A stretch of 14,279 bases of DNA from a virus. Lineage: Duplodnaviria; Heunggongvirae; Uroviricota; Caudoviricetes. Shown here one piece after another: positions 1 to 12,276 of this stretch. Made by a program: the position numbers and the translations under genes. Numbering within the stretch: position 1 is the first letter of the stretch; each line of letters begins with the position of its first letter. Where the stretch lies: the IMG/VR virus record IMGVR_UViG_3300029079_000040. One strand, written 5' to 3'. The notes under the pieces were generated by a model that saw only the letters and a list, made by a program, of their open reading frames with translations, searched no databases and was not told the DNA's origin.

Positions 1-19
1 CCGGATACACACTGTTCAT

Positions 20-49
20 AGCCTGCGCCATACGCAGGCTATTTCTTTC
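20..49 (+). terminator. Hairpin AGCCTGCG-CCATA-CGCAGGCT followed by ATTTCTTTC; possible intrinsic terminator or 3-prime stabiliser at the convergence point with racC
   Basis: Perfect 8-bp inverted repeat at 20-27 / 33-40 with a 5-nt loop, then a T-rich run at 41-49 on the + strand. The minus-strand racC stop codon lies at 48-50. Confidence 0.3.
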
Positions 50-323
50 AGATTTCACCTTTTAATTTCATTGCAATCAGAGTTGCCAGAAATTCGGCTT
101 TTTTTTCTGCGGGCAGATTCTTTCCGGTATGCACCAGGCACATTTTTTTGACACCTTCGTGAAGTGTTTTAACGTTGCCTGATGGACCGTCGATATCAAC
201 CACAGTGAATGGGGTTTCTTTATTTTCTGTTTTAATCACGTAGCCAATACGCTTTCCTTCCAGATTAACTTCGTGAACAATGTCATCAGTAGTTACAACA
301 GTGGCTTCATAACTGGTAATCAT
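48..323 (-). CDS. racC: Rac-prophage RacC-like protein, 91 aa (start taken at the internal ATG preceded by AAGGAG, not at the longer track ORF start)
   Basis: Track ORF 48..371 contains MITSYEAT... preceded by AAGGAGAAAAAC-ATG. Length (91 aa) and position downstream of kilR/ydaE match what I recall for Rac racC. Name is from memory and synteny, unverified. Confidence 0.6.
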   Translation of the reverse strand: MITSYEATVVTTDDIVHEVNLEGKRIGYVIKTENKETPFTVVDIDGPSGNVKTLHEGVKKMCLVHTGKNLPAEKKAEFLATLIAMKLKGEI

Positions 324-397
324 GTTTTTCTCCTTAATTAAGGTTGAGCGAATCCCTGCCATTGCTGGCATAAATTCAGTTTCGCATAGTCAGTTAA

Positions 398-568
398 TTA
401 AAGTTCGTGTGCCATCTGGTCTTTTTCGGCACATATTTCACTACAATATTTTTTCATTTCCGTCGTTGGGATAACTCCACGCATGAAATGAAGTGGTCTT
501 TTAATGCTTTTGCTTTCTTTAACTTCTTTATCGCAAAGGTGGTAAGCACATTTTATTTTCTTAGTCAT
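398..568 (-). CDS. ydaE: Small Cys-rich (CxxxxC ... CxxxC) protein, 56 aa; YdaE-like putative zinc-binding protein
   Basis: Hand translation of the minus strand gives [56 protein letters not shown] with stop at 398-400. It is absent from the ORF track. The start ATG (568..566) overlaps the kilR stop (ATGA coupling). Size and position match Rac ydaE as I recall it. Confidence 0.55.
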   Translation of the reverse strand: MTKKIKCAYHLCDKEVKESKSIKRPLHFMRGVIPTTEMKKYCSEICAEKDQMAHEL

Positions 569-789
569 CACCATGACTCCGCCTTTACAGGTAAACCATC
601 ACGACCGAGGAAGACTTTAATCATGCAGTCAGTAATGCATTTTTTTGTGGTCAGGTTACGAATATAAAGCTTTCGCTTTTTAATATTGTTTGCCGAGGCA
701 ATATATGTCCGGCCGTTATGAAGAACATAATCACCAGGAGTCACACACTGACGAGGTATTTCATCAGTTCCGAAGTGATGAGCAATCAT
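568..789 (-). CDS. kilR: Kil protein of Rac type (FtsZ-targeting cell-division inhibitor), 73 aa
   Basis: Track ORF 568..807; preferred start is [15 protein letters not shown]... at ATG 789..787, preceded by GGAG. The 73-aa protein and its position next to sieB fit Rac KilR. Recognised from memory. Confidence 0.65.
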
Positions 790-828
790 AATTATCTCCA
801 TTTTCACAAATGAACTTTGTTGATGCGG

Positions 829-875
829 TGCCTGGTGCCTCCAGGTGACGTTAACCAGTTAACAATTAACGCCGG
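829..875. promoter_or_regulatory. Cluster of short palindromes upstream of the kilR operon and sieB (CCTGG-TGCCT-CCAGG at 831-845; GTTAACCAGTTAAC at 850-863); possible operator/promoter elements
   Basis: Inverted repeats are read directly from the sequence. No convincing -35/-10 pair could be assigned by eye. Confidence 0.2.
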
Positions 876-1220
876 ATAATCCACCCATAACACTGATGCT
901 TTTAACTGTTCCGCGTGCGCTTAGCCGCATTCACCGCATCACAAAATTCACTTTAAAAAGGGCGGACATCAGCCGAACTTCAAGAAAAAAACTGATGCCG
1001 CCAGGACTACACACAGCAATGTCGTTATTTACAACCGGAGGCGCACTCCCACCATTTAAATTTAACAGACAAGACCGACTCTTTATGGATATCGGAAATG
1101 CGCCTTCGTGTTGTGCCCGGTTTTATTTCACCACCTCCGGGCTTCGGTGGTCTCGGCTATACCCCTACAGCGAGAGCTTGTGTTAACATTTCAATACCCT
1201 TACAGTTGAGAGTTATTGAT

Positions 1221-1709
1221 ATGTTGGATGTATTTACTCCATTGTTGAAACTTTTTGCTAACGAGCCACTCGAAAGACTTATGTATACGATTATCATTTT
1301 TGGTCTCACTCTCTGGCTGATACCGAAAGAGTTTGCTGTCGCATTCAATGCTTATACTGAAATACCCTGGCTCTTTCAGATTATCGTTTTTGCCTTTTCT
1401 TTCGTGGTCGCTATTTCCTTCTCAAGATTGCGAGCACATATTCAAAAGCATTATTCATTGCTACCAGAGCAACGAGTATTGCTTCGTTTATCTGAGAAAG
1501 AAATCGCTGTATTTAAAGATTTCCTTAAAACAGGAAATCTTATTATCACTTCTCCTTGCCGTAACCCGGTTATGAAAAAATTAGAACGGAAGGGCATCAT
1601 TCAACATCAGAGTGATAGCGCAAACTGTTCTTATTATCTCGTCACCGAAAAATACTCCCACTTTATGAAGTTATTCTGGAACAGCAGGAGCAGGCGTTTT
1701 AATCGTTAG
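1221..1709 (+). CDS. sieB: Superinfection exclusion protein B (SieB), 162 aa, N-terminal transmembrane helices
   Basis: Track ORF 1098..1709; start taken at MLDVFTPLLK... (ATG 1221). Two hydrophobic helices (IIIFGLTLWLI, LFQIIVFAFSFVVAISF) followed by a soluble domain. Length and placement between kilR and ydaF match Rac sieB. The stop overlaps the ydaF stop on the opposite strand. Confidence 0.7.
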   Translation: MLDVFTPLLKLFANEPLERLMYTIIIFGLTLWLIPKEFAVAFNAYTEIPWLFQIIVFAFSFVVAISFSRLRAHIQKHYSLLPEQRVLLRLSEKEIAVFKDFLKTGNLIITSPCRNPVMKKLERKGIIQHQSDSANCSYYLVTEKYSHFMKLFWNSRSRRFNR

Positions 1710-1861
1710 CTTACTGTGTGCTTCTCCAACCATCGTCGTGCGCCAGCTTCGGTTTTAAACGTTTTGCTTTTGGTATACGTCATGGCAGTGAACGTTCCAT
1801 CCTGGTTGGGGAACACGCCGCACACCAGGGATTCGTTATTGCCGAGGTCGATTTTTTGCAT
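1706..1861 (-). CDS. ydaF: YdaF-like small protein, 51 aa
   Basis: Hand translation of the minus strand: MQKIDLGNNESLVCGVFPNQDGTFTAMTYTKSKTFKTEAGARRWLEKHTVS, with GAGG 8 nt upstream of the ATG. Not in the ORF track (below its length cutoff). Size and position match Rac ydaF as recalled. Confidence 0.5.
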   Translation of the reverse strand: MQKIDLGNNESLVCGVFPNQDGTFTAMTYTKSKTFKTEAGARRWLEKHTVS

Positions 1862-1871
1862 TTTTCGCACC

Positions 1872-2006
1872 TCACATCTTGTTGTTGCGGATAGAGGCTT
1901 CTGCCTGCCAGAGATCCCAGTCGTTGCTGCGTAGAGCCTGTACAGCCTGGCTGTAAGTGATATCGCAACAATCCATCAAATACTGAACTACTTCGTAATG
2001 CACCAT
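1872..2006 (-). CDS. ydaG: YdaG-like small protein, 44 aa
   Basis: Hand translation of the minus strand: MVHYEVVQYLMDCCDITYSQAVQALRSNDWDLWQAEASIRNNKM, preceded by GGAGAG-ATAAG-ATG. Size and position match Rac ydaG as recalled. Confidence 0.5.
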   Translation of the reverse strand: MVHYEVVQYLMDCCDITYSQAVQALRSNDWDLWQAEASIRNNKM

Positions 2007-2115
2007 CTTATCTCTCCCCTTAACGCCGGGTGGGTGAATTTTAACTGGGAGAGCTGGCGTCCGAATGTCGTCCAGCCAGGAATTGCGAAGTAATTTTTAC
2101 CGGGAGAAAAATTTA
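2007..2115. promoter_or_regulatory. 109-bp divergent intergenic region between the ydaG start (minus) and the first plus-strand gene; expected site of divergent early promoters and operators, but no repressor gene is present
   Basis: Positional inference only; no operator repeats confidently identified. Confidence 0.3.
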
Positions 2116-2892: not shown

Positions 2893-3315
2893 ATGGCAAA
2901 AGTATTTACACCAGAAGAGCGAGAAAAAATTAAAGGACAGGTTGTTGAACTTGTACCTCTGAGCGGTCGCGAGACGTTACGGCAACTGGAAGCCAAGACA
3001 GGTGAGACAAGATATCTGATGAGTGTTCTCGCCAGTGAGCTGGTTGCCAGTGGCGATGTATACAACTCTGGTTACGGGTTATTCCCGTCTGAACAGGCGC
3101 GTAAAGACTGGCAAAACGCCCGCAAAAAACTATCGAGGGCAAAGGTGAAGAAACCTGCTGTAGTTGATCCGGACCTTATCTGGTCATTACCAGACGGAGA
3201 AATACGCCGCTATGACAGGCGTCTGAATATAATCTGTCGCGAGTGCCGGAAGAGCGAAGTCATGCAGCGTGTACTGGCGTTCTATCAGGGTAATTTTCAG
3301 GATGTGCTGTTGTGA
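2893..3315 (+). CDS. Hypothetical protein, 140 aa, basic C-terminal half with a CxxC pair
   Basis: Track ORF 2878..3315; start preferred at MAKVFTPEEREK (ATG 2893) with GGAGG upstream. Function not recognised. Confidence 0.5.
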   Translation: MAKVFTPEEREKIKGQVVELVPLSGRETLRQLEAKTGETRYLMSVLASELVASGDVYNSGYGLFPSEQARKDWQNARKKLSRAKVKKPAVVDPDLIWSLPDGEIRRYDRRLNIICRECRKSEVMQRVLAFYQGNFQDVLL

Positions 3316-3419
3316 GCCAAATTAACAATCAGGGAACTGCGTGAACTGAAAGAGAAATCATAATCCAAATCTGAATAATTAAATTTAGCACTGTAAATAA
3401 AATTTAATCCTTAACCGGA

Positions 3420-3428
3420 GGGGGGGGG
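3420..3428. repeat. Homopolymeric G9 tract in the leader of the 3478 gene
   Basis: Read directly: CCGGA-GGGGGGGGG-CTGCGCCCTC, about 50 nt upstream of the ATG at 3478. It is followed by a GCCC-GAAA-GGGC tetraloop hairpin that sits next to the Shine-Dalgarno sequence. Confidence 0.9.
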
Positions 3429-3477
3429 CTGCGCCCTCAAAATATTAGGAGGCGGCCCGAAAGGGCGGTAATGAAAA

Positions 3478-3981
3478 ATGACTGAATTAACCAAAAAGCA
3501 ATTAATCGAAGAAGCTAAATTAAAAATAGCGATTGAGAAATGCCACCCCAATTCAGGGATGGCACGGGTAGAGGGCGAATTATTCAAAATTGCTCTGGCA
3601 TCGCTGGAAGCAGAGCCAGTTGGTGATTTTTATGAATACAAACCGGATGACTGGTATCAGCGTTCGGCTGGAGATAAAGCGCCAAAATGGACGCCACCCT
3701 ATGCCGTTTTTCCAGCGCCCGTAGTGCCGGAAGAAATGGATTTGCTTACATGCCATCTCGATGGTGTAACTGAAACATATGCTGAGGGATGGAACGCTTG
3801 CCGCGCTGCCCTGCTTCAGGGCAAAGGGGAGCCCGGGAAACAAGTTCGCGAATTGACAATGCTGGTTAAACAATTGGTTAGTCAACTGAAGAAACCGAAA
3901 CCGGGCTGCAAATTGCCGGATAAAGTGATGGACTACCTGGAGCGAAGCGGACTTATAAGCGTGGAGGATGTTTTACGATGA
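3478..3981 (+). CDS. Hypothetical protein, 167 aa
   Basis: Track ORF; TAGGAGG 11 nt upstream. N-terminal predicted helical/coiled region (MTELTKKQLIEEAKLKIAIEK). Family not recognised with confidence. Confidence 0.55.
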   Translation: MTELTKKQLIEEAKLKIAIEKCHPNSGMARVEGELFKIALASLEAEPVGDFYEYKPDDWYQRSAGDKAPKWTPPYAVFPAPVVPEEMDLLTCHLDGVTETYAEGWNACRAALLQGKGEPGKQVRELTMLVKQLVSQLKKPKPGCKLPDKVMDYLERSGLISVEDVLR

Positions 3982-4061
3982 CCTGGCCTGAAGCATTCAC
4001 AACGGTAGGAATTGCGATGGCGGTGGCGCTGGTGGTGTATTCGATTTGCCGCTGGGGTTGA
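3978..4061 (+). CDS. Possible 27-aa single-pass membrane peptide, translationally coupled to the upstream gene
   Basis: ATG at 3978 overlaps the upstream TGA (ATGA). Translation MTWPEAFTTVGIAMAVALVVYSICRWG has a hydrophobic core. It ends just before a terminator-like hairpin. Too short for the ORF track. Confidence 0.3.
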   Translation: MTWPEAFTTVGIAMAVALVVYSICRWG

Positions 4062-4073
4062 TAATACTAAATA

Positions 4074-4097
4074 ACCAGCCCTTATGGGGCTGGCTAA
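4074..4097. terminator. Bidirectional terminator-like hairpin between convergent genes
   Basis: CCAGCCC-TTAT-GGGCTGG stem-loop at about 4075-4093, between the 27-aa ORF (+) and the KilA-N gene (-). A-/T-rich flanks on both sides. Confidence 0.4.
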
Positions 4098-4101
4098 TCA
4101 T

Positions 4102-4875
4102 TTAGAACTGTTCATTGCCATCGAGGTTAGGTAGCATAATTTTTTCAATCAAGGCGAGAGCCTTTTTGTCCCGGTCAGCGAAGTATTTCGGGGCATATTG
4201 CGGCAACCAAATATTGTTAAAATGTTCTTTGAAATCTGCTAAATATTCATTTGGGTACAGCCTTGCAGGGTATACGCGACCATCGGGATATTCATGGTCA
4301 TAGGTAGGGAATGTTTTGGGTTCTACGTTTCTATTATCTCTTAACCATTGTGAAAATACTCTTCCTTGTGAAATGTCAGGAACCATTTTTTCTGGGAGTG
4401 TGTACCCTGCTTGTTCAAGAGGTGCAACCAAGTTGAATGTCAGTTCATTAAGAATAGAAAAGTGCGTGTGAGGAATTCTACTACGATTAACCATGTACCG
4501 TTTTAAATGTACAGGCATTTCTGCTGTAGTTCTTTCCCCTGACATCCATTCACGAACCCATCTTGAAACCTGGACTGCAAATTTGGGCGATAGCCACTGC
4601 GCTAGATTAATAGCGATGTCAGGATGCACCCATGTCCCTTGGTTTTCAGGTCTTCCACCTTTAAATGATTGAATTAACTCCGATATGGGAATTCCCATAT
4701 CGCGTGATAATTCGTCAAAAAACTCTTGAGTAGTTTTGAGTCTAGTGTAATCAGAGAGCAGTTTGCCCGCAGTTCTACACATTGATGTGGCGTTTATGTA
4801 ACCATCTTTGGCACGTAAATGTATTATTTCGCCGTCAATTTCACGAGAAATCAAAGATAATTGAAAGGATGTCAT
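4102..4875 (-). CDS. KilA-N domain protein, 257 aa
   Basis: N-terminal region (GYINATSMCRTAGKLLSDYTRL ... GTWVHPDIAINLAQWLSPKFAVQVSRWV) matches the KilA-N/APSES-type DNA-binding domain signature as I know it. GAGGAA 8 nt upstream of the ATG. C-terminal domain unrecognised. Confidence 0.75.
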   Translation of the reverse strand: MTSFQLSLISREIDGEIIHLRAKDGYINATSMCRTAGKLLSDYTRLKTTQEFFDELSRDMGIPISELIQSFKGGRPENQGTWVHPDIAINLAQWLSPKFAVQVSRWVREWMSGERTTAEMPVHLKRYMVNRSRIPHTHFSILNELTFNLVAPLEQAGYTLPEKMVPDISQGRVFSQWLRDNRNVEPKTFPTYDHEYPDGRVYPARLYPNEYLADFKEHFNNIWLPQYAPKYFADRDKKALALIEKIMLPNLDGNEQF

Positions 4876-5341
4876 TGAAAATTCCTCAAGTTGGAGAGTT
4901 CTGGAACATTAAGGCGAGGTGGCAGTAATGCACCATCTGTAATCTTTTGATACTGACGTAATCGGGCCTGATGTGCAACGCCTTGCAAGTATGTAACTCA
5001 TTGAAAACGATCATTTTTATCTATTGACATCAAATGGCAAACTGTCATTGTGCGGCTATGGCAAGTGGCAAATGCTTATAAATCATATGGATATAAATAG
5101 TACAGAAAGAGTTGTTTTCTCTAGGATATGAGTATACGCCCAATGCTGATTGGTTGAATTTTGTTCTTGTTTTAAAGGGTAAGAGTTTAAAGTGTTGGCA
5201 GTGATGTATTGGATAGTTAGAATTGCTGTGGGTGCTTGAGGCTATCTGCCTCGGGCATGAACACCAAAGGTAGATAGAGAAAAGCCCCAGTTAACATTAC
5301 GCGTCCTGCAAGACGTTTAACATTAATCTGAGGCCATATCT

Positions 5342-5401
5342 ATGCGACACATAGAGATTAGCCTCTTACGGACCGAAAGGTCAAGGAGAAGCAGGCTATG
5401 A
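5342..5401 (+). CDS. Short leader ORF (19 codons) ending in ATGA overlap with the hok start; possible mok-like coupling frame
   Basis: ATG 5342 to TGA 5399-5401, overlapping hok ATG 5398-5400. By analogy to mok/hok translational coupling; weak. Confidence 0.25.
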   Translation: MRHIEISLLRTERSRRSRL

Positions 5402-5961: not shown

Positions 5962-5986
5962 AAACATGCATTATAAATGCACCTTT
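5962..5986. promoter_or_regulatory. NsrR-box-like palindrome ATGCAT-TATAA-ATGCAC immediately upstream of the YeaR-like gene
   Basis: Sequence AAACATGCATTATAAATGCACCTTT compared with the NsrR consensus AAGATGCATTT-n-AAATGCATCTT (established for E. coli, including the chromosomal yeaR promoter). The match is judged by eye. Confidence 0.35.
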
Positions 5987-6314
5987 TTGAGGGTTATGTC
6001 AAGCTGTTATGAAACACATAATTGATATGTTGATTAGAGGAGAAGATAGAATCAATATGGTTGTTTTTCGTATAACTATTTGTTTTACTTTTAGTTTGTG
6101 CATTCTGTGTGTTAGGAATAACTTATTAAAGTTTAACTAAAAAATCTCGATATAGTCCGCATAGATTACTGTTACTGAATCTTATTGTGTGCATTAGTTG
6201 TGTTCTGAAATTTCAATTTAATTACTTATGATATATTTTTAACGATAAATGTTTTCCGGGTGAAAGACAGTGGGGGATGAGATAAGCAATATATCATTAA
6301 TCTTGATTATTTCC

Positions 6315-6376
6315 AGGATGCCTTTACTGTGCATATAAATAAATCATATACGCATCAAATAATGTAAAGGCATCCT
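6315..6376. repeat. Perfect 13-bp inverted repeat AGGATGCCTTTAC / GTAAAGGCATCCT separated by 36 nt of AT-rich sequence
   Basis: Read directly from the sequence (6315-6327 and 6364-6376). The loop contains TGTGCATATAAAT; the right arm is followed by TTTTAG. Confidence 0.9.
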
Positions 6377-6814
6377 TTTAGATATATCTTATCAAATGTT
6401 AATGATTTGAGTGGGAAACATGATTCCAGAAACTAATCATGCGGCTACTTTATAAAAATAATGCCCATATAAAACAGCCAGCGAAAAGGATTACGGATAA
6501 AAAAGGAGCGAGATGTGCATAGTTGTTATTTTCCATGTTTAACCACCTTAAATAATTGATGATGACGGGATGTGCATCTGTAATGCTTTTGTTGAAATGT
6601 TATGATAAAAAAGAACTTTTTCATAACATTAAAATGTAATTTATCTAATCGTTTTTAATAATAAGTGTTGTATTTCTATCCTTGTATCAGCTATTTGATA
6701 TGTAGTGTTTGTTCATGTTATGTGGAGCTTTACACCATAGCCAGTTTATTTATACTTTATTCGTCAGCCTGAACAACTGGCATCTGCTGCACTGCGCCAT
6801 CGAGAGATTGAGAA

Positions 6815-7414: not shown

Positions 7415-7704
7415 TGGTGGATTTACGTAAAGCGGCGCGGGGGCAGATGTGCACCGTCAGAATTCCTGGCTACTGCAATCACGATCCGGAAACGTCTGTG
7501 CTGGCGCATTACCGACTGGCGGGAACGTGCGGAACAGCGACAAAACCACACGATATGCAGGCGGCGATTGCCTGTAGCTCATGCCACGATCTAATCGACG
7601 GGCGGGTAAAAACCAGCGATTACACCAAAGAAGAATTACGCCTGATGCATGCAGAAGGTGTTTTTCGCACACAAGAAATCTGGAGAAAGGAGGGATATTT
7701 GTGA
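7414..7704 (+). CDS. ybcO: YbcO-like protein (DUF1364, putative metal-dependent nuclease), 96 aa
   Basis: MVDLRKAARGQMCTVRIPGYCNHDPETSVLAHYR ... ACSSCHD closely resembles DLP12 YbcO (MADLRKAARGRECQVRIPGVCN...) as I recall it, with conserved Cys residues and the same length. Confidence 0.7.
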   Translation: MVDLRKAARGQMCTVRIPGYCNHDPETSVLAHYRLAGTCGTATKPHDMQAAIACSSCHDLIDGRVKTSDYTKEELRLMHAEGVFRTQEIWRKEGYL

Positions 7705-8243
7705 TTTACCCAACGAATACAGGAAAAAGCGGAGAACACCTTCGTCTCGCCACGCTGGAAAGTGTCTGGATTCAGGGCAAACTGCGTATGTGGGGGCGCT
7801 GGTCGTATATTGGCGGTGGCAGGTCAGGAAATATGTTCAATCAGTTGTTGGCATCCAAAAAATTGACGAAAACAGCCATCAATGAAGCCCTGCGCAGAAT
7901 GAAAAAAGCGGGAATAGAGAAAGCTGAGCTGGAAGCGTTTTTGCGAGAGATGATCAACGGCAAGCAAAAGAGCTGGCTGGCGCATTGTACTGATGCAGAG
8001 GCGTTATGTATTGATCGAGTCATAAGTGAGGTGCTGGCAGAGCATCCTGGATTGATTAGTGTCCTCCGGCAACGGTATGAAGGACGGGGGATGACTAAGC
8101 GCAAAATGGCTGAATTGCTAAATGATGCACATCCTGAGTGGTGTTTTAGCACATGCGAAAAGCGAATTGCTAATTGGTTGGCTGTTGCTGAGTATGCCCT
8201 ATATATTCCCATGCGAGAATCATTTGCTCAAAAAATAGCTTGA
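7701..8243 (+). CDS. Late-gene antiterminator Q-like protein, about 180 aa from a GTG start
   Basis: Track ORF 7581..8243; preferred start is GTG 7701 (AAGGAGGG 5 nt upstream, GTGA overlap with the ybcO-like stop). Position directly upstream of a promoter-plus-terminator unit and the lysis cassette. Family assignment (phage Q antiterminator) is by context and partial recollection. Confidence 0.55.
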   Translation: MIYPTNTGKSGEHLRLATLESVWIQGKLRMWGRWSYIGGGRSGNMFNQLLASKKLTKTAINEALRRMKKAGIEKAELEAFLREMINGKQKSWLAHCTDAEALCIDRVISEVLAEHPGLISVLRQRYEGRGMTKRKMAELLNDAHPEWCFSTCEKRIANWLAVAEYALYIPMRESFAQKIA

Positions 8244-8270
8244 TTTTTTACGCATAAACTGCTTCAATTC
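8240..8270 (+). promoter_or_regulatory. Candidate late promoter (PR-prime analogue): TTGATT-17 nt-TTCAAT overlapping the Q stop
   Basis: -35-like TTGATT at 8240-8245 and -10-like TTCAAT at 8263-8268; about 60 nt upstream of a terminator. By eye only. Confidence 0.3.
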
Positions 8271-8326
8271 CGGTATGCTTCGCAAAGCTGTATCGCGAGG
8301 CGAACCAAGCGCATGAACTTTACCAG

Positions 8327-8356
8327 AACCCGCCATTGAGCGGGTTTTGTTGTTTC
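8327..8356 (+). terminator. Intrinsic terminator, tR-prime analogue downstream of Q
   Basis: AACCCGC-CATTGA-GCGGGTT stem-loop followed by TTTTGTTGTTTCT. Confidence 0.55.
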
Positions 8357-8404
8357 TGGTACTGGTGAACCTGATGTTTCATTTCTGGAGCGCGATTCCT
8401 GGCG

Positions 8405-8436
8405 GAATACCTAGAATCGAGACATTCTGGTAAAAT
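8405..8436 (+). promoter_or_regulatory. Candidate extended -10 promoter (TGgTAAAAT) for the membrane-protein moron
   Basis: TGG-TAAAAT at 8428-8436, about 30 nt upstream of the ATG at 8465. Weak -35. Confidence 0.3.
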
Positions 8437-8464
8437 TGTTTTCAGTACAGGATGTGGAGGTGAG

Positions 8465-9034
8465 ATGAGAGAACTACCTAAAGATTATTTTTTAGGAGTA
8501 GATGATGAGCTCGTCGATTATCTTGAAAAACAAGGGGAAGAGACGATACGAGAGATTCATCTTTCTAACAAAACCAATGTTGAGAATGGATACAAACTTC
8601 TGAACATTCAGATTGTTGGAATTGGTTCATCTTTTTTATTGCTGACACAGAAAACTAATTTCGATTTTCTCACCGCCGGAATTACCACATTTACATTACT
8701 ATGGACATGGTGCGCCATTTACTTGGTATGTACTGGTTTATCTGTGAAGGTTAGGGGCCTGATCAATGCCCCTCCTGATCATATATATCATGAAAAATAT
8801 AAGGATATGGAGCCCTCGAGCTTTAAAATATTCGCTGATGCAGGATATTTAGGACCTGATAAGTTATTGCCGCTTATACGAAGGTATCGCCTTGTTGACT
8901 TGAGTGATACAGCAAGAGAGTTACTGTTGGAAAATGAGAAAATCCGCACGAGTCTCGATAAAGCAAGGATGTATACCATCCTTGCTCCGGTAGCGGCGAT
9001 GTTTATCTCGGCTGTTTTTTTATATGTTCAATGA
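8465..9034 (+). CDS. Hypothetical integral membrane protein, 189 aa, three predicted transmembrane helices; moron between Q and the holin
   Basis: Track ORF with GGAGGTGAG immediately upstream. Hydrophobic segments LLNIQIVGIGSSFLLL, ITTFTLLWTWCAIYLVCTGL and MYTILAPVAAMFISAVFLYV; acidic N-terminus. Visibly AT-rich compared with the flanking Q and lysis genes. No family recognised. Confidence 0.65.
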   Translation: MRELPKDYFLGVDDELVDYLEKQGEETIREIHLSNKTNVENGYKLLNIQIVGIGSSFLLLTQKTNFDFLTAGITTFTLLWTWCAIYLVCTGLSVKVRGLINAPPDHIYHEKYKDMEPSSFKIFADAGYLGPDKLLPLIRRYRLVDLSDTARELLLENEKIRTSLDKARMYTILAPVAAMFISAVFLYVQ

Positions 9035-9164
9035 CTGAGTCGGCAGAATCTCCAACAAAAACACGACGTGTAGCAAAGTCTGTAGTACTTTGTGTTGGAG
9101 TTGGTTTTGGTGCCACGGGTTGCTGAGGTTTATTTTCACCTTGTGGTTTGTTTTTTTCAGACAT
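9003..9164 (-). CDS. Possible 53-aa Pro/Gln/Lys-rich small protein, convergent with and overlapping the 3-prime end of the membrane-protein gene
   Basis: Within track ORF 9003..9395; internal start MSEKNKPQGENKPQQPVAPKPTPTQSTTDFATRRVFVGDSADSVIEHIKKQPR has AGAGGA 5 nt upstream of the ATG at 9164..9162. Low complexity. Confidence 0.4.
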   Translation of the reverse strand: MSEKNKPQGENKPQQPVAPKPTPTQSTTDFATRRVFVGDSADSVIEHIKKQPR

Positions 9165-9258
9165 AAAAATCCTCTTTGTTTGAATTGTTACTTTTGGCGA
9201 TTTAACGATATCAAACACGAGTATATACCGCCAGAAGCTTAATCTGGCACTCCATCTG

Positions 9259-9286
9259 GCCCCGGCATGTCCCGGGGCTTTTTCGT
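9259..9286 (+). terminator. Strong intrinsic terminator upstream of the holin gene
   Basis: GCCCCGG-CATGTC-CCGGGGC stem followed by TTTTTCGTTGTT. Confidence 0.6.
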
Positions 9287-9381
9287 TGTTAGGCTCTGGA
9301 AACATCCTCGACTTCTTGTTAGCAAGCCTGAGAGCCTGAATCTTACACTTAGCACCATCCGAACTCTCGGAGGTGAGGCTT

Positions 9382-9723
9382 ATGAAAATGCACAATGCCC
9401 CTCATTCCTGGCCTGACTTACTGGAACTCTTACAAAGTTGGTGGCGTGGAGATACGCCGCTGGGTGCAGTGGTTATGTCAATTATTATGGCTGGTTTGCG
9501 CATTGCCTATTTTGGCGGTGGCGGCGGCTGGAAACGAAAAACGCTTGAGATTCTGCTTTGTGGTGCTCTGACGCTGACCTTTGCATCCGCGCTTGAGTAT
9601 GTCGGATGGCCTAAATCACTTTCTGTTGCCATTGGTGGTGGGGTGGGGCTGATTGGTGTTGATGCTATTCGTGGTGCGGCAATGAGGGTCATCGGTAACA
9701 AGTTCGGTGCCCATAAGGAGTAA
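9382..9723 (+). CDS. S: Class I holin with Met-Lys-Met dual-start motif (lambda S-like arrangement), 113 aa from the first ATG
   Basis: GGAGGTGA 6 nt upstream of ATG 9382. MKMHNAP... parallels lambda S107/S105 (MKMPEK). Three hydrophobic segments. Immediately followed by the R endolysin. The track used an upstream GTG (9373). Confidence 0.75.
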   Translation: MKMHNAPHSWPDLLELLQSWWRGDTPLGAVVMSIIMAGLRIAYFGGGGGWKRKTLEILLCGALTLTFASALEYVGWPKSLSVAIGGGVGLIGVDAIRGAAMRVIGNKFGAHKE

Positions 9724-9726
9724 TTA

Positions 9727-10203
9727 ATGCAGACACTTAATTCCCAGCGTAAAGCTTTCCTTGATATGGTGGCATGGTCAGAAGGAACAGATAACGGACG
9801 GCAGAAAACCAGAAATCACGGTTATGATGTTATTGTCGGTGGCGAACTGTTCACTGATTACTCCGATCACCCCCGCAAACTTGTCACGCTAAATCCGAAA
9901 CTCAAATCAACAGCCGCTGGACGTTACCAGCTTCTTTCACGCTGGTGGGATGCCTACCGCAAGCAACTTGGCCTGAAAGATTTTTCTCCAGAAAGTCAGG
10001 ATGCTGTAGCGCTGCAGCAGATTAAAGAGCGTGGCGCTTTGCCGATGATTGATCGCGGTGATATCCGTCAGGCTATCGACCGTTGCAGCAATATATGGGC
10101 TTCACTGCCGGGCGCTGGTTATGGTCAGTTCGAGCATAAGGCTGACAGTCTGATTGCAAAATTCAAAGAAGCTGGCGGAACGGTCAGAGAGATTGAGGTA
10201 TGA
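9727..10203 (+). CDS. R: Endolysin, lambda R-type lytic transglycosylase, 158 aa
   Basis: Near-identical by eye to lambda R (…[58 protein letters not shown]…). Confidence 0.9.
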
Positions 10204-10681
10204 GCAGAGTAACCGCGATTATCTCCGCTCTGGTTATCTGCATCGTCGTCTGCCTGTCATGGGGTGTTAATCATTACCGTGATAACGCCATCGCCTACAA
10301 AGAACAGCGCGACAAAAATGCCAGAGAACTGAAGCTGGCGAACGCGGCAATTACTGACATGCAGATGCGTCAGCGTGATGTTGCTGCGCTCGATGCAAAA
10401 TACACGAAGGAGTTAGCTGATGCGAAAGCTGAAAATGATGCTCTGCGTGATGATGTTGCCGCTGGTCGTCGTCGGTTGCACATCAAAGNNNNNNNNNNNN
10501 NNNNNNNNTCTGTCAGTCAGTGCGTGAAGCCACCACCGCCTCCGGCGTGGATAATGCAGCCTCCCCCCGACTGGCAGACACCGCTGAACGGGATTATTTC
10601 ACCCTCCGGGAACGACTGGTAATGATGCAGGCCCAACTTGAAGGTGCTCAGCAATACATAACCGAGCAGTGTTTAAAGTAA
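10200..10681 (+). CDS. Rz: Rz i-spanin; reading frame interrupted by a 20-nt N run, so coordinates are in window numbering
   Basis: N-terminal [96 protein letters not shown] matches lambda Rz. After the N run, the correct frame reads ...[57 protein letters not shown], stop at 10679-10681. Confidence 0.85.
10420..10622 (+). CDS. Rz1: Rz1 o-spanin lipoprotein embedded in the +1 frame of Rz
   Basis: AAGGAG 8 nt upstream of ATG 10420. [23 protein letters not shown]...[N run]...[37 protein letters not shown] matches lambda Rz1, with its lipobox LVVVGC and proline-rich region. Confidence 0.8.
10489..10508. other. Run of 20 N (assembly gap or masked bases) inside Rz/Rz1
   Basis: Literal n characters in the sequence. 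Comparison with lambda suggests the real content here is about 3 nt (CAG), not 20. Confidence 1.
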
Positions 10682-10818
10682 AATCTTAACTACAATATGA
10701 TTCATTTTGATGATTGTTTCATAAGGAACAGTGAAGTAAGATCTAAGAGGAGTTAAATTTTATACAGTATAATCATAATATTGCAGCAAGGTGGTTATAA
10801 TTGAAAGAATATTTAGAT

Positions 10819-12276
10819 ATGAATACATCTCATGTAAGAGTTGTTACTCATATGTGTGGGTTCCTGGTTTGGCTCTATAGTCTTTCAATGTTGCCACCAA
10901 TGGTTGTAGCATTGTTTTATAAAGAAAAAAGCCTGTTCGTTTTCTTTATAACTTTCGTTATATTTTTTTGCATTGGTGGCGGAGCGTGGTATACAACTAA
11001 GAAATCTGGCATTCAATTACGTACCCGTGATGGGTTTATTATAATTGTAATGTTTTGGATTTTGTTTTCTGTTATTAGTGCATTCCCTTTATGGATTGAC
11101 TCAGAACTTAATTTAACGTTCATTGATGCTCTGTTTGAAGGGGTTTCTGGAATAACAACAACAGGAGCAACTGTAATTGATGATGTTAGTTCATTACCTC
11201 GGGCATATTTGTACTATCGGTCACAGTTAAATTTTATAGGTGGTTTAGGAGTTATTGTTCTGGCGGTTGCTGTATTGCCATTATTGGGTATTGGTGGTGC
11301 AAAGCTTTATCAGTCAGAAATGCCGGGGCCATTTAAGGATGACAAACTCACTCCCCGCCTGGCCGATACGTCACGGACACTGTGGATAACTTATTCTTTA
11401 TTAGGTATTGCTTGTATTGTCTGTTATAGACTTGCAGGAATGCCTTTGTTTGATGCTATTTGTCACGGGATTTCCACAGTTTCGCTTGGTGGTTTCTCAA
11501 CTCATAGCGAGAGTATCGGATATTTTAATAACTATTTGGTTGAGCTGGTGGCTGGTTCTTTTTCCCTGCTATCGGCTTTCAACTTCACTCTTTGGTATAT
11601 TGTTATTAGCAGGAAAACGATAAAACCTTTAATCAGAGATATTGAACTTCGTTTCTTTCTGTTAATAGCCTTAGGGGTGATCATTGTTACCTCTTTCCAG
11701 GTCTGGCATATAGGTATGTATGACTTGCATGGAAGTTTTATTCATTCGTTTTTTCTTGCCAGCTCCATGCTCACTGATAATGGTTTAGCTACGCAGGATT
11801 ATGCAAGTTGGCCCACGCACACGATAGTGTTTTTGCTGTTGTCAAGTTTCTTTGGGGGATGTATAGGTTCAACTTGTGGTGGAATTAAGTCACTTCGATT
11901 TCTTATACTTTTCAAACAAAGCAAACACGAGATAAATCAGCTTTCTCATCCCAGAGCGTTGTTGAGTGTAAATGTAGGAGGGAAGATAGTTACAGATCGT
12001 GTAATGAGGTCTGTATGGAGTTTCTTTTTTCTTTATACTCTCTTCACGGTGTTTTTTATACTGGTGTTAAATGGTATGGGATATGATTTTCTTACATCAT
12101 TTGCAACAGTGGCTGCATGTATTAATAATATGGGATTAGGTTTTGGGGCTACTGCATCGTCATTCGGAGTGCTTAATGACATTGCAAAATGTTTAATGTG
12201 CATAGCTATGATTCTTGGTCGCCTTGAAATTTATCCTGTTATTATATTGTTTTCAGGTTTTTTTTGGCGCTCCTAA
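10819..12276 (+). CDS. trkG: TrkG, TrkH-family potassium uptake membrane protein, 485 aa
   Basis: Multi-pass membrane protein with repeated pore-loop-like GxG motifs. Sequence from MNTSHVRVVTHMCGFLVWLY matches Rac trkG as I recall it, and the position directly after Rz/Rz1 is the Rac arrangement. Track ORF starts at TTG 10801; the ATG at 10819 gives 485 aa. Confidence 0.85.
   Translation: MNTSHVRVVTHMCGFLVWLYSLSMLPPMVVALFYKEKSLFVFFITFVIFFCIGGGAWYTTKKSGIQLRTRDGFIIIVMFWILFSVISAFPLWIDSELNLTFIDALFEGVSGITTTGATVIDDVSSLPRAYLYYRSQLNFIGGLGVIVLAVAVLPLLGIGGAKLYQSEMPGPFKDDKLTPRLADTSRTLWITYSLLGIACIVCYRLAGMPLFDAICHGISTVSLGGFSTHSESIGYFNNYLVELVAGSFSLLSAFNFTLWYIVISRKTIKPLIRDIELRFFLLIALGVIIVTSFQVWHIGMYDLHGSFIHSFFLASSMLTDNGLATQDYASWPTHTIVFLLLSSFFGGCIGSTCGGIKSLRFLILFKQSKHEINQLSHPRALLSVNVGGKIVTDRVMRSVWSFFFLYTLFTVFFILVLNGMGYDFLTSFATVAACINNMGLGFGATASSFGVLNDIAKCLMCIAMILGRLEIYPVIILFSGFFWRS

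What the first reader, a model, noticed from the sequence alone, without database searches (positions are those of the whole stretch)
8405..9290. Self-contained AT-rich cassette between Q and the holin encoding an unrecognised three-helix membrane protein
The slot between the Q antiterminator/late promoter and the holin is the classic cargo position of lambdoid phages (stx genes in Stx phages, tRNA and other morons elsewhere). Here it holds a promoter-like element (TGgTAAAAT), a strong Shine-Dalgarno sequence, a 189-aa ORF with an acidic N-terminal domain and three hydrophobic helices, and a strong intrinsic terminator at 9259-9286. The cassette is visibly more AT-rich than its neighbours, suggesting horizontal acquisition. 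I cannot place the protein in any family I know. Small membrane proteins at this locus are good candidates for superinfection exclusion or abortive-infection functions, or for host-envelope remodelling.
Basis: partly seen in the sequence, partly recalled or inferred. Interest (0 to 1): 0.75.

Follow-up and report, generated by a model that had tools for sequence, protein, structure and literature searches.

The report
Two-gene membrane cargo module in prophage
Between the late-gene switch and the lysis genes of this E. coli prophage lies a mobile cargo module with two genes, not one: a three-helix inner-membrane protein and a small proline-rich protein on the opposite strand, both of untested function and most plausibly used in conflicts with other phages.

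Summary
Window 8359-9290 is a discrete, more AT-rich insert just after the tR'-like terminator that follows Q. It carries a 189-aa ORF (8465-9034) with a strong SD, three hydrophobic helices and a strong terminator (9258-9284).

A 53-aa Pro/Gln-rich ORF runs convergently (9164 to 9003) and overlaps the 3' end of orf189 by 32 nt. It is under purifying selection (dN/dS 0.06-0.22). It accompanies the membrane gene in 93 of 96 loci, including relatives at 17-25% identity.

The membrane protein belongs to PHROG 11870 (function unknown) and has no Pfam, NCBIfam or PADLOC hit. It is unrelated to P22 SieA/SieB, lambda RexB and HK97 gp15. Family members give only weak, colinear matches to PycTM and CBASS 2TM effector models.

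Most relatives sit in the same Q-to-holin slot, next to three antiterminator families and at least four endolysin types. Others lie among tail genes, among early genes or outside phages, so the module is autonomous cargo rather than part of the lysis machinery.

An 18-nt promoter/5'UTR block upstream of the small gene drives unrelated cargo genes in other prophages.

Function is unknown experimentally. An exclusion or abortive-infection role is the best guess (confidence about 0.4).

The parts
7701..8243 (+). Late antiterminator Q (DUF1133 / Phage_antitermQ). This is context and marks the left border of the cargo slot.
   Evidence: Pfam DUF1133 E 1e-106 and Phage_antitermQ 5e-06. PHROG 753, Q-like. 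The PGAP CDS in the identical E. coli locus maps to these coordinates.
8244..8358 (+). Conserved Q-downstream leader ending in a tR'-like intrinsic terminator (stem-loop 8324-8349 plus T-run). The insert begins right after it.
   Evidence: Terminator scan. Partial matches in about 1200 E. coli genomes cover only query positions 1-115, which equal window 8244-8358.
8428..8436 (+). TGGTAAAAT, an extended -10-like element (hexamer TAAAAT 8431-8436). Candidate weak own promoter of orf189.
   Evidence: Sequence. GGTAA(A/G)AT recurs 32-42 nt before the start in diverged loci. Not significant alone, no -35.
8456..8460 (+). Shine-Dalgarno GGAGG of orf189.
   Evidence: Sequence, 4 nt before the ATG at 8465.
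8465..9034 (+). orf189: a three-TM inner-membrane protein (WP_001208721.1, PHROG 11870). Predicted topology is N-in/C-out, so the acidic N-terminal helix (1-44) and the 76-aa loop (93-168) are both cytoplasmic.
   Evidence: AF2 model pLDDT 83 with helices 14-62, 68-92 and 134-188. Architecture kept in 61 relatives.
9003..9164 (-). Convergent small gene, 53 aa, Pro/Gln-rich and hydrophilic. Conserved MS..NKP start and DF..R..VGDSA(D/E) motif (PHROG 14506). Overlaps the 3' end of orf189 by 32 nt.
   Evidence: dN/dS 0.06-0.22 outside the overlap. Mostly disordered, with a C-terminal helix, in a single-sequence AF2 model. PGAP annotates it with a longer GTG start at 9218.
9170..9174 (-). Shine-Dalgarno (GAGGA on the minus strand) of the small gene, 5 nt before its ATG.
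   Evidence: Sequence. An SD is present in every locus.
9196..9213 (-). Conserved 18-nt block TGATATCGTTAAATCGCC (minus strand). It contains an extended -10 (TGATATCGT, + coordinates 9205-9213) and the start of the 5' UTR. Candidate promoter of the small gene.
   Evidence: The core positions TG.TA..GT are invariant in 28 of 28 aligned loci, and the middle T is kept in at least 90%. TGnTAnnnT lies 46-57 nt before the ATG in 34 of 41 unique loci. The exact 18-mer is kept where the proteins are only about 50% identical. The same block precedes unrelated minus-strand genes in 20 other viral loci.
9230..9248 (.). Inverted repeat GCCAGA-N7-TCTGGC between the block and the terminator. It overlaps the -35 position of the minus-strand promoter. 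It could be an operator or an RNA hairpin.
   Evidence: Trabulsiella loci have a different inverted repeat (GCCGCC..GCGGC) at the same place.
9258..9284 (+). Strong intrinsic terminator closing the cassette on the + strand, upstream of the holin.
   Evidence: A terminator of varying sequence stands at the same place in diverged loci.
9382..9723 (+). Lambda-family holin S. This is context and marks the right border of the cargo slot.
   Evidence: Pfam Phage_holin_3_1 E 2e-27. PGAP annotation.

Best explanation
WHAT IT IS (confidence about 0.85). It is a mobile two-gene accessory ('moron') module dropped into the cargo slot between the Q-dependent late promoter/tR' and the holin. Gene 1 encodes a 189-aa inner-membrane protein. 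Its long N-terminal and C-terminal helices run from the cytoplasm into the membrane and, with a middle TM helix, form an elongated three-helix bundle. Gene 2 is encoded convergently and overlaps gene 1's 3' end. It encodes a 53-aa mostly disordered, Pro/Gln-rich cytoplasmic protein with a conserved C-terminal FxxxRxxVGDSA motif. Each gene has its own -10-like element, and terminators bracket the unit.

HOW IT PROBABLY WORKS (inferred, confidence about 0.35-0.4). In the lysogen the conserved minus-strand promoter would express the small protein and send antisense transcription into orf189. The weak plus-strand promoter would give a low level of the membrane protein, and the 9258 terminator would shield the holin from read-through. 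The membrane protein would act as an inner-membrane effector that either blocks genome entry or, after oligomerising, depolarises the membrane. The small protein and/or the antisense transcript would act as its brake or sensor. Challenge by another phage would tip the balance towards the membrane protein. So would Q-driven read-through from pR' during induction, which would override the convergent promoter. The outcome would be exclusion or abortive infection of competitors.

Shown: the anatomy, conservation, selection, genomic distribution and lack of homology to known families. Inferred: expression pattern, the interaction between the two products, membrane activity and the defence phenotype.
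For: - The two-gene architecture is conserved. The small convergent ORF with an SD is present in 93 of 96 loci examined. The exceptions are an N-containing sequence, one unexplained locus, and a 1-nt homopolymer deletion. The small ORF is also present in relatives at 17-25% identity in Pandoraea, in a non-phage metagenome contig and in a phage early region.
- The small ORF is a real gene: dN/dS 0.06-0.22.
- The membrane protein is strongly conserved: 24 invariant columns across 40 enterobacterial homologues, nearly all exactly 189 aa. The profile search found 102 cluster representatives with the same three-TM layout. All 61 tested fall in PHROG 11870.
- The module is autonomous. It is bracketed by terminators. 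It lies next to three antiterminator families and at least four endolysin types. It also occurs in tail-gene regions, in early regions near a repressor or HicA-like genes and in a non-phage context.
- The slot holds other cargo in sister prophages. At least three alleles (100%, 57% and 52% identity) sit next to the same Q or the same holin in E. coli (L092, L073/74).
- The architecture matches membrane-disrupting immune effectors. There are weak colinear hits to PADLOC PycTM: 4 of 61 members, best E 1.5e-8. P0186 residues 26-165 align to model positions 10-151 of 160, and P0127 residues 26-128 to positions 10-108. The family consensus scores 0.0022. There are also hits to the CBASS '2TM' effector model: 2 of 61, best 4e-5.
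- The minus-strand promoter block is shared with other small prophage cargo genes. This fits expression independent of the late operon.
Against: - There is no experimental or literature evidence for any phenotype.
- The window protein itself hits no PADLOC, Pfam or NCBIfam model.
- The member giving the 1.5e-8 PycTM hit could not be identified. The other PycTM/2TM hits have E-values of 0.002-0.05 and involve hydrophobic helices, which are prone to composition-driven matches.
- No cyclase or other sensor gene lies nearby.
- Fold searches return only generic long-helix bundles such as BAR domains.
- Both promoters are inferred from sequence only.
- Most close relatives sit immediately upstream of lysis genes, which also fits a late or lysis-linked role.
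- Only 5 of 50,697 deposited phage genomes carry the gene, so nothing is known from studied phages.
Confidence: 0.4

Rival explanations
1. Toxin-antidote (addiction) module. orf189 is a membrane toxin. The convergent transcript and/or the small protein neutralise it. This would stabilise the prophage or the slot, with no specific anti-phage role. It is analogous to 3'-overlapping type I toxin-antitoxin pairs.
For: The convergent, 3'-overlapping arrangement is conserved family-wide. The minus-strand promoter block is highly conserved. Truncated orf189 copies are frequent, as expected for a costly gene: P0033 (128 aa) occurs on 25 contigs, and L021-L023 are also truncated. A hok/sok pair in the same prophage shows such modules are tolerated there.
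Against: The candidate toxin is 189 aa with large soluble parts, unlike type I toxins of under 60 aa. The antisense partner is a protein-coding gene under purifying selection, not just an RNA. One locus has an intact orf189 with a frameshifted small ORF, although this is probably a homopolymer sequencing error. No toxicity data exist.
Confidence: 0.2
2. Late-expressed lysis or late-infection accessory. As the first gene read by Q-modified RNA polymerase, orf189 would tune holin timing or membrane state, or prevent re-adsorption or superinfection during the late phase.
For: Of the 80 IMG/VR loci, 67 have a recognisable antiterminator and/or lysis gene beside the gene, and all 67 place it downstream of the antiterminator and/or upstream of the lysis genes. 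The Serratia and Pantoea loci do the same. It lies downstream of tR', so it must be transcribed from pR' on induction. It is a three-TM inner-membrane protein, the same compartment as holins.
Against: There is no hit to any holin, antiholin or spanin family. It is partnered with unrelated holins and endolysins, and other cargo is sometimes interposed. Relatives at 55% identity sit among tail genes, and others sit in early regions or outside phages, always with the small partner. Most lambdoid phages with the same Q and the same holin lack it. It has its own terminator in front of the holin.
Confidence: 0.12
3. Lysogenic-conversion factor for host physiology, such as envelope stress, ion homeostasis or colonisation. 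It would benefit the host independently of phages, like trkG further along in the same prophage.
For: It is a moron-type cassette in a prophage that also carries trkG. It is present in 223 of 5426 complete E. coli genomes, many of them human isolates.
Against: There is no transporter or enzyme signature. Only three helices are present, with no conserved polar network typical of carriers. The diversified alleles and the obligatory small partner are more typical of conflict systems. Nothing links it to a host pathway.
Confidence: 0.1

Closest known systems
Pycsar PycTM and CBASS '2TM' membrane effectors (PADLOC PDLC02363/02364, PDLC00700; Pfam PF18967)
   Same: Similar size (models of 154-173 positions against 160-200 aa here). 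Weak but colinear profile matches from several family members and from the family consensus. Like them, it is carried on mobile elements.
   Different: The window protein itself gives no hit. No nucleotide cyclase or CD-NTase is adjacent. The constant partner is a 47-64 aa Pro-rich protein encoded convergently. A third, C-terminal TM helix is conserved. No PF18967-annotated protein was reached by profile searches.
Classical lambdoid morons and exclusion genes (HK97 gp15, P22 SieA/SieB, lambda RexB)
   Same: These are prophage accessory genes. HK97 gene 15 is annotated 'moron product' with a terminator directly after it. P22 sieA and sieB each have an annotated promoter of their own. From my own knowledge, they encode inner-membrane proteins expressed in the lysogen.
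   Different: No detectable homology: hhalign probability 0.1-1.0%. Size and topology differ. None of them has a conserved convergent small partner gene.
Type I toxin-antitoxin loci with 3'-overlapping convergent transcripts, and lambda cII/OOP
   Same: A convergent transcription unit overlaps the 3' end of a gene for a membrane protein. The antisense partner has a conserved promoter.
   Different: The membrane protein is three times larger than type I toxins. The antisense partner encodes a conserved protein (dN/dS 0.06-0.22). No RNA family matches the region.
Other cargo of the Q-to-S slot (tRNA genes, TerB, SASA-family esterase; stx from my own knowledge)
   Same: Same insertion point directly after tR'. 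Read by Q-modified polymerase on induction.
   Different: The content is different. This module has its own terminator and an opposing promoter, so it is insulated from the late operon in the lysogen.

Membership tests
Moron (Hendrix/Juhala sense) | Extra gene(s) inserted between genes that are adjacent in related phages | tested here: met
   Sister prophages with the same Q and leader carry other cargo at this point. 1445 genomes share only 8244-8358.
Moron (Hendrix/Juhala sense) | Own transcription terminator | tested here: met
   Terminator 9258-9279 plus T-run. A terminator stands at the same position in diverged loci.
Moron (Hendrix/Juhala sense) | Own promoter active in the lysogen | tested here: inconclusive
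   Only -10-like elements were found: TGGTAAAAT on the + strand and TGATATCGT on the - strand. Both are conserved in position. There is no -35, no call by the two-hexamer scan and no expression data.
Moron (Hendrix/Juhala sense) | Base composition different from neighbours | tested here: met
   40.8% GC against 47-50% in the flanks. GC3 is 0.36 (orf189) and 0.20 (small gene) against 0.45-0.53 in neighbouring genes.
Pycsar effector PycTM | Significant match to PycTM profile (Pfam PF18967 / PADLOC PycTM) | tested here: inconclusive
   Window protein: no hit at E<=1. Family: 4 of 61 members hit, best E 1.5e-8 (member not identified). The identified hits have E 0.007-0.046 and the family consensus scores 0.0022.
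Pycsar effector PycTM | Adjacent pyrimidine cyclase PycC | tested here: not met
   No cyclase in the window or in the annotated identical locus. None is adjacent in the related loci. One metagenome locus has a Guanylate_cyc-TPR gene two genes away, on a different transcription unit.
CBASS 2TM effector | Profile match and adjacent CD-NTase | tested here: not met
   Only 2 of 61 members hit PDLC00700 (best 4e-5; P0196 scores 0.0022). No CD-NTase is present in any neighbourhood examined.
Holin / antiholin | Match to a holin family and obligatory linkage to an endolysin | tested here: not met
   The window protein has no holin Pfam or PHROG hit. One of 61 relatives has a marginal hit to holin phrog_689 at E 0.0028. 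Relatives occur away from lysis genes. The locus already has a lambda-family holin.
P22 SieA / SieB, lambda RexB, HK97 gp15 | Sequence homology | tested here: not met
   hhalign of the family profile against each protein gives probability 0.1-1.0%.
Type I toxin-antitoxin | Small (<60 aa) hydrophobic toxin plus non-coding antisense RNA antitoxin | tested here: not met
   The membrane protein is 189 aa. The antisense partner is protein-coding under purifying selection. No Rfam match. Whether the transcripts pair is not testable here.
PHROG 11870 / PHROG 14506 (function unknown) | Full-length profile match | tested here: met
   orf189 matches phrog_11870 at E 1e-107 over positions 1-189 of 189. 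The small ORF matches phrog_14506 at E 6e-33. All 61 relatives hit phrog_11870.

The most novel reading that the evidence does not exclude
A previously undescribed two-component phage-conflict system, widespread in prophages of Gamma- and Betaproteobacteria. A stand-alone PycTM/2TM-like inner-membrane effector would be controlled by a convergently encoded, disordered proline-rich peptide and by the antisense transcription it brings, rather than by a nucleotide second messenger. The module would be expressed from a portable 'cargo promoter' shared by several other unknown prophage genes.
Probability: 0.3. Interest if true: 0.75.

Novelty: new variant of a known kind. Interest (0 to 1): 0.55.

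Why it matters
The Q-to-holin slot is where lambdoid prophages carry their best-known cargo, such as Shiga toxin. This module sits in that slot in about 4% of complete E. coli genomes and across Enterobacterales, yet it is annotated only as 'hypothetical protein'. In the phage-record annotations seen here (ON470614.1, ON470609.1), the small gene is not called at all.

A convergent gene pair that stays together from 100% down to 17% identity of the membrane protein is unusual, and it gives a concrete, cheap experiment. If the module is an exclusion or abortive-infection system, it adds a membrane effector with a new kind of regulator.

The shared 18-nt promoter/5'UTR block also gives a handle for finding more lysogen-expressed cargo genes in lambdoid prophages.

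Tried and rejected
- Family scans of the window protein and the small ORF against Pfam, NCBIfam and PADLOC gave nothing.
- PDB sequence searches with both family profiles gave only chance-level hits.
- I tried to pin down the family member that gives the 1.5e-8 PycTM hit. Four PADLOC scans and a fifth with consensus sequences found only weak hits.
- A profile search meant to bridge to PF18967 proteins found none.
- Supplements of two defence-discovery papers hold no sequence or accession for this gene. A full-text search for the accession found nothing.
- A 5'UTR/3'UTR hairpin around the conserved block folds well in E. coli (z -3.5). Across loci only 59% of cells pair, and the slid controls are similar. 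RNAalifold predicted no consensus structure. I do not claim it.
- An apparent Rz-Rz1 fusion ORF (10200-10622) turned out to be an artefact of a masked 20-N run.
- Viral-contig scans with two distant relatives found no loci. The broad alignments were too diverse for locus scans.
Full report
**Origin and setting.** The window is a Rac-like lambdoid prophage of E. coli. The stretch 8244-9372 is 100% identical to E. coli TUM14771 and eight other listed complete genomes. In the annotated copy the gene order is DUF1367, DUF1364, Q (DUF1133), two 'hypothetical proteins', lambda-family holin, GH24 lysozyme, Rz, trkG, ynaK. Pfam and PHROG scans confirm Q (7701-8243), the holin, and Rz/Rz1.

**Check of the observation.**
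- The 189-aa ORF (8465-9034), its GGAGG (8456-8460) and the terminator at 9258-9279 are all present.
- Kyte-Doolittle profiles give three hydrophobic segments at about 45-62, 69-92 and 169-189, and an acidic N-terminus with net charge -5.
- Lys/Arg distribution is 6 in residues 1-45, 1 in the 6-residue loop between helices 1 and 2, and 14 in residues 93-168. This argues for N-in/C-out topology with both soluble parts in the cytoplasm. That is inference from the positive-inside rule.
- The cassette is 40.8% GC against 47-50% in the flanks. That is not extreme for this mosaic window.
- TGGTAAAAT (8428-8436) is not significant on its own and has no -35. A GGTAA(A/G)AT motif does recur 32-42 nt before the start codon in diverged loci.
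- A second terminator (8324-8349) lies just upstream. About 1200 E. coli genomes match only the first 115 nt of my query, which is 8244-8358. The insert therefore starts at about 8359, straight after a tR'-like terminator.
- In sister prophages with the same Q, the slot holds tRNA-Thr/Gly, tRNA-Ile/Arg plus TerB plus DUF3927 plus a SASA esterase, or other genes. The 'cargo slot' reading is correct.

**A second gene was missed.**
- On the minus strand an ATG at 9164, preceded by GAGGA, opens a 53-aa ORF that ends at 9003, 32 nt inside orf189. It matches PHROG 14506, function unknown.
- Homologues of orf189 in Serratia and Pantoea (45-55% identity) have the same convergent 48-50 aa ORF overlapping by 20 nt.
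- I counted 96 loci from genomes, IMG/VR and metagenomes. The small ORF with an SD is found in all but two. A third carries a 1-nt deletion in a T7 run, and one of the two misses contains an N.
- Its pattern is MS-x-x-NKP, then a Pro/Gln-rich stretch, then DF-x-x-x-R-x-x-VGDSA(D/E), then a basic tail.
- Outside the overlap, dN/dS is 0.06-0.22. It is a protein-coding gene under purifying selection.
- The remotest relatives of the membrane protein (17-25% identity) also have a convergent, SD-preceded, Pro-rich small ORF abutting the 3' end. These include a Pandoraea Mu-like prophage, a non-phage metagenome contig, a phage early region and a low-GC prophage.
- A single-sequence AF2 model of the small protein is mostly unstructured, with a short C-terminal helix.

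**The membrane protein family.**
- The first homology search found 104 clusters, all that carry a name from Enterobacterales, nearly all exactly 189 aa, none with a Pfam domain.
- Forty of them align with 24 invariant positions, concentrated in the N-terminal helix and TM1: D-Y-F-L-x-x-D-D, L-E-K-Q-G-E, S-N-x-x-N-x-E-N-G-Y-K-L-L and I-V-G-I-G-S-S-F.
- An exhaustive profile search found 102 representatives at the 50% clustering level, down to about 18% identity. They are 160-200 aa and all have the same three hydrophobic segments. All 61 tested fall in PHROG 11870.
- AlphaFold2 (pLDDT 83) predicts helices 14-62, 68-92 and 134-188, giving an elongated three-helix bundle whose distal end is the membrane part.
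- Profile comparison with P22 SieA, P22 SieB, lambda RexB and HK97 gp15 gives probabilities of 1% or less.

**A lead towards immune membrane effectors.**
- Scanning the 61 members against PADLOC gave PycTM hits for 4 members (best E 1.5e-8) and CBASS '2TM effector' hits for 2 (best 4e-5).
- The hits I could locate are weak but colinear and nearly full length:
  - P0186 residues 26-165 against model positions 10-151 of 160.
  - P0202 residues 36-107 against 8-76.
  - P0127 residues 26-128 against 10-108.
  - Family consensus residues 64-154 against 49-127, E 0.0022.
  - P0196 against the 2TM model, E 0.0022.
- Pfam PF18967 (PycTM) hit one member at E 0.016.
- The window protein itself gives no hit. 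No cyclase or CD-NTase is adjacent in any locus. I could not reach PF18967 proteins by profile search.
- I treat this as 'works like' evidence of modest weight, not as membership.

**Where the module sits.**
- Of 80 IMG/VR loci, 67 have a neighbour I could recognise. All 67 place the module downstream of an antiterminator and/or upstream of lysis genes. The antiterminators belong to three families: DUF1133-type Q, PF06530 Q and PF03589. The lysis genes include at least four endolysin types. Other cargo sometimes lies on either side.
- This is not obligatory. A group at 55% identity lies among tail genes next to a Rha-like gene. The Pandoraea copy lies between Mu gp43- and gp44-like tail genes. 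Others lie in early regions beside a repressor or a HicA-like gene. One is in a non-phage context.
- In E. coli itself, alleles at 100%, 57% and 52% identity sit next to the same holin (L092) or the same type of Q (L073/L074).
- Only 5 of 50,697 deposited phage genomes carry it.
- This distribution argues for an autonomous cargo module and against an integral lysis function.

**Regulatory anatomy.**
- The most conserved non-coding element lies upstream of the small gene: TGATATCGTTAAATCGCC on the minus strand (+ coordinates 9196-9213).
- In 28 of 28 aligned loci the core positions TG.TA..GT are invariant, and the middle T is kept in at least 90%. In 34 of 41 unique loci TGnTAnnnT lies 46-57 nt before the ATG. 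This is an extended -10 without a conserved -35.
- The exact 18-mer survives where the proteins are only about 50% identical.
- Scanning IMG/VR for it gave 85 stretches. Of the 65 new stretches with enough flanking sequence to test, 45 carry orf189. The other 20 carry the same block and 5' UTR in front of unrelated minus-strand genes. These include a 67-aa zinc-ribbon protein, a 92-94 aa protein, a 148-aa protein and a 163-165 aa protein. Some of the 20 have the same right flank (inverted repeat, terminator, holin leader) as the window.
- The block is therefore a portable cargo promoter/leader of this slot, and the small gene is what it drives here.
- Between the block and the terminator lies an inverted repeat, GCCAGA-N7-TCTGGC (9230-9248), at the -35 position. 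Trabulsiella loci have a different repeat at the same place.
- A hairpin spanning the block is not supported across loci. No Rfam family matches the region.

**Interpretation.**
- Shown: a conserved two-gene convergent module of unknown function, bracketed by terminators, sitting in a cargo slot and mobile among prophage positions.
- Inferred: in the lysogen the minus-strand promoter makes the small protein and an antisense transcript across orf189. A weak plus-strand promoter makes some membrane protein. The 9258 terminator protects the holin. On induction, Q-modified polymerase from pR' reads through both terminators, overrides the convergent promoter and makes orf189 the first late product.
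- The most likely role is inter-phage conflict (exclusion or abortive infection) through an action on the inner membrane, with the small protein and/or the antisense RNA as brake or sensor. I put this at about 0.4.
- Rivals are a toxin-antidote stabilisation module (0.2), a late or lysis accessory (0.12) and host-physiology conversion (0.1).

**Novelty and score.** The kind of element (moron, prophage membrane protein) is known. The family, its obligatory convergent proline-rich partner and the shared cargo promoter were not found in any paper or family library I could search. I rate it a new variant of a known kind, with interest 0.55.

Noticed in passing
window 9196-9213 (minus strand); also loci L130-L198: The 18-nt block TGATATCGTTAAATCGCC plus a conserved 5' UTR precedes at least five unrelated minus-strand cargo genes in 20 other IMG/VR prophage loci. 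These include a 67-aa Zn-ribbon protein, a 92-94 aa protein starting MASFTVRVEL, a 148-aa protein and a 163-165 aa protein starting MDKFDR. Some loci have the same right flank as here. It looks like a portable promoter/leader for cargo of the late-region slot.
   Followed up: partly
window 5230-5400 (+): Full-length Rfam sok antitoxin RNA (101.5 bits, E 1.6e-22). A Hok/Gef gene is annotated at the corresponding place in the identical E. coli locus. This is a hok/sok type I toxin-antitoxin in the nin-like region of the prophage.
   Followed up: no
window 5972-6708: About 740 nt of very AT-rich DNA (about 31% GC) with no ORF of 50 aa or more on either strand, between the DUF1971 gene and the DUF1367 gene. 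Nothing was identified there.
   Followed up: no
window 10801-12276: trkG (potassium transporter) is a second AT-rich cargo gene (37.8% GC, GC3 0.32). It lies between Rz and the ParB-like ynaK gene, as in Rac.
   Followed up: no
window 10489-10508: A masked run of 20 N lies inside Rz/Rz1. It makes the ORF 10200-10622 look like an Rz-Rz1 fusion (Pfam hits to both). This is an artefact, because the identical genome has a normal 154-aa Rz.
   Followed up: yes
window 9151-9157; locus L043: A T7 (A7 on the coding strand) homopolymer spans codons 3-5 of the small gene. One IMG/VR copy has a 1-nt deletion there that frameshifts the small ORF while orf189 stays intact. It is probably a sequencing error, but slippage-based switching is not excluded.
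   Followed up: partly
loci L092, L073, L074 (E. coli-type flanks): Alleles of the module at only 57% and 52% protein identity sit next to the same holin (L092, 100% identical) or the same type of Q (L073/L074, 82-83% identical). This points to allelic replacement or diversification at a fixed site.
   Followed up: partly
proteins P0033, P0083, P0095-P0104; loci L021-L023: Truncated or frameshifted copies of the membrane gene are common in Escherichia, Citrobacter, Klebsiella, Leclercia, Symbiopectobacterium and Yersinia. In Leclercia the small gene stays intact.
   Followed up: no
window 1-2030 and about 4067-4070 against L001: The window matches E. coli TUM14771 from 2031 onwards. It lacks that strain's IS5 insertion next to the KilA-N gene. 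Its first 2 kb (immunity region side) find no match in the 21-kb TUM14771 locus fetched here, which may reflect mosaicism at the left end.
   Followed up: no
locus L011 (metagenome), 2930-4747: Near a remote, non-phage family member there is a 605-aa Guanylate_cyc plus TPR protein two genes upstream. It is probably coincidental. It is noted because Pycsar effectors pair with cyclases.
   Followed up: no
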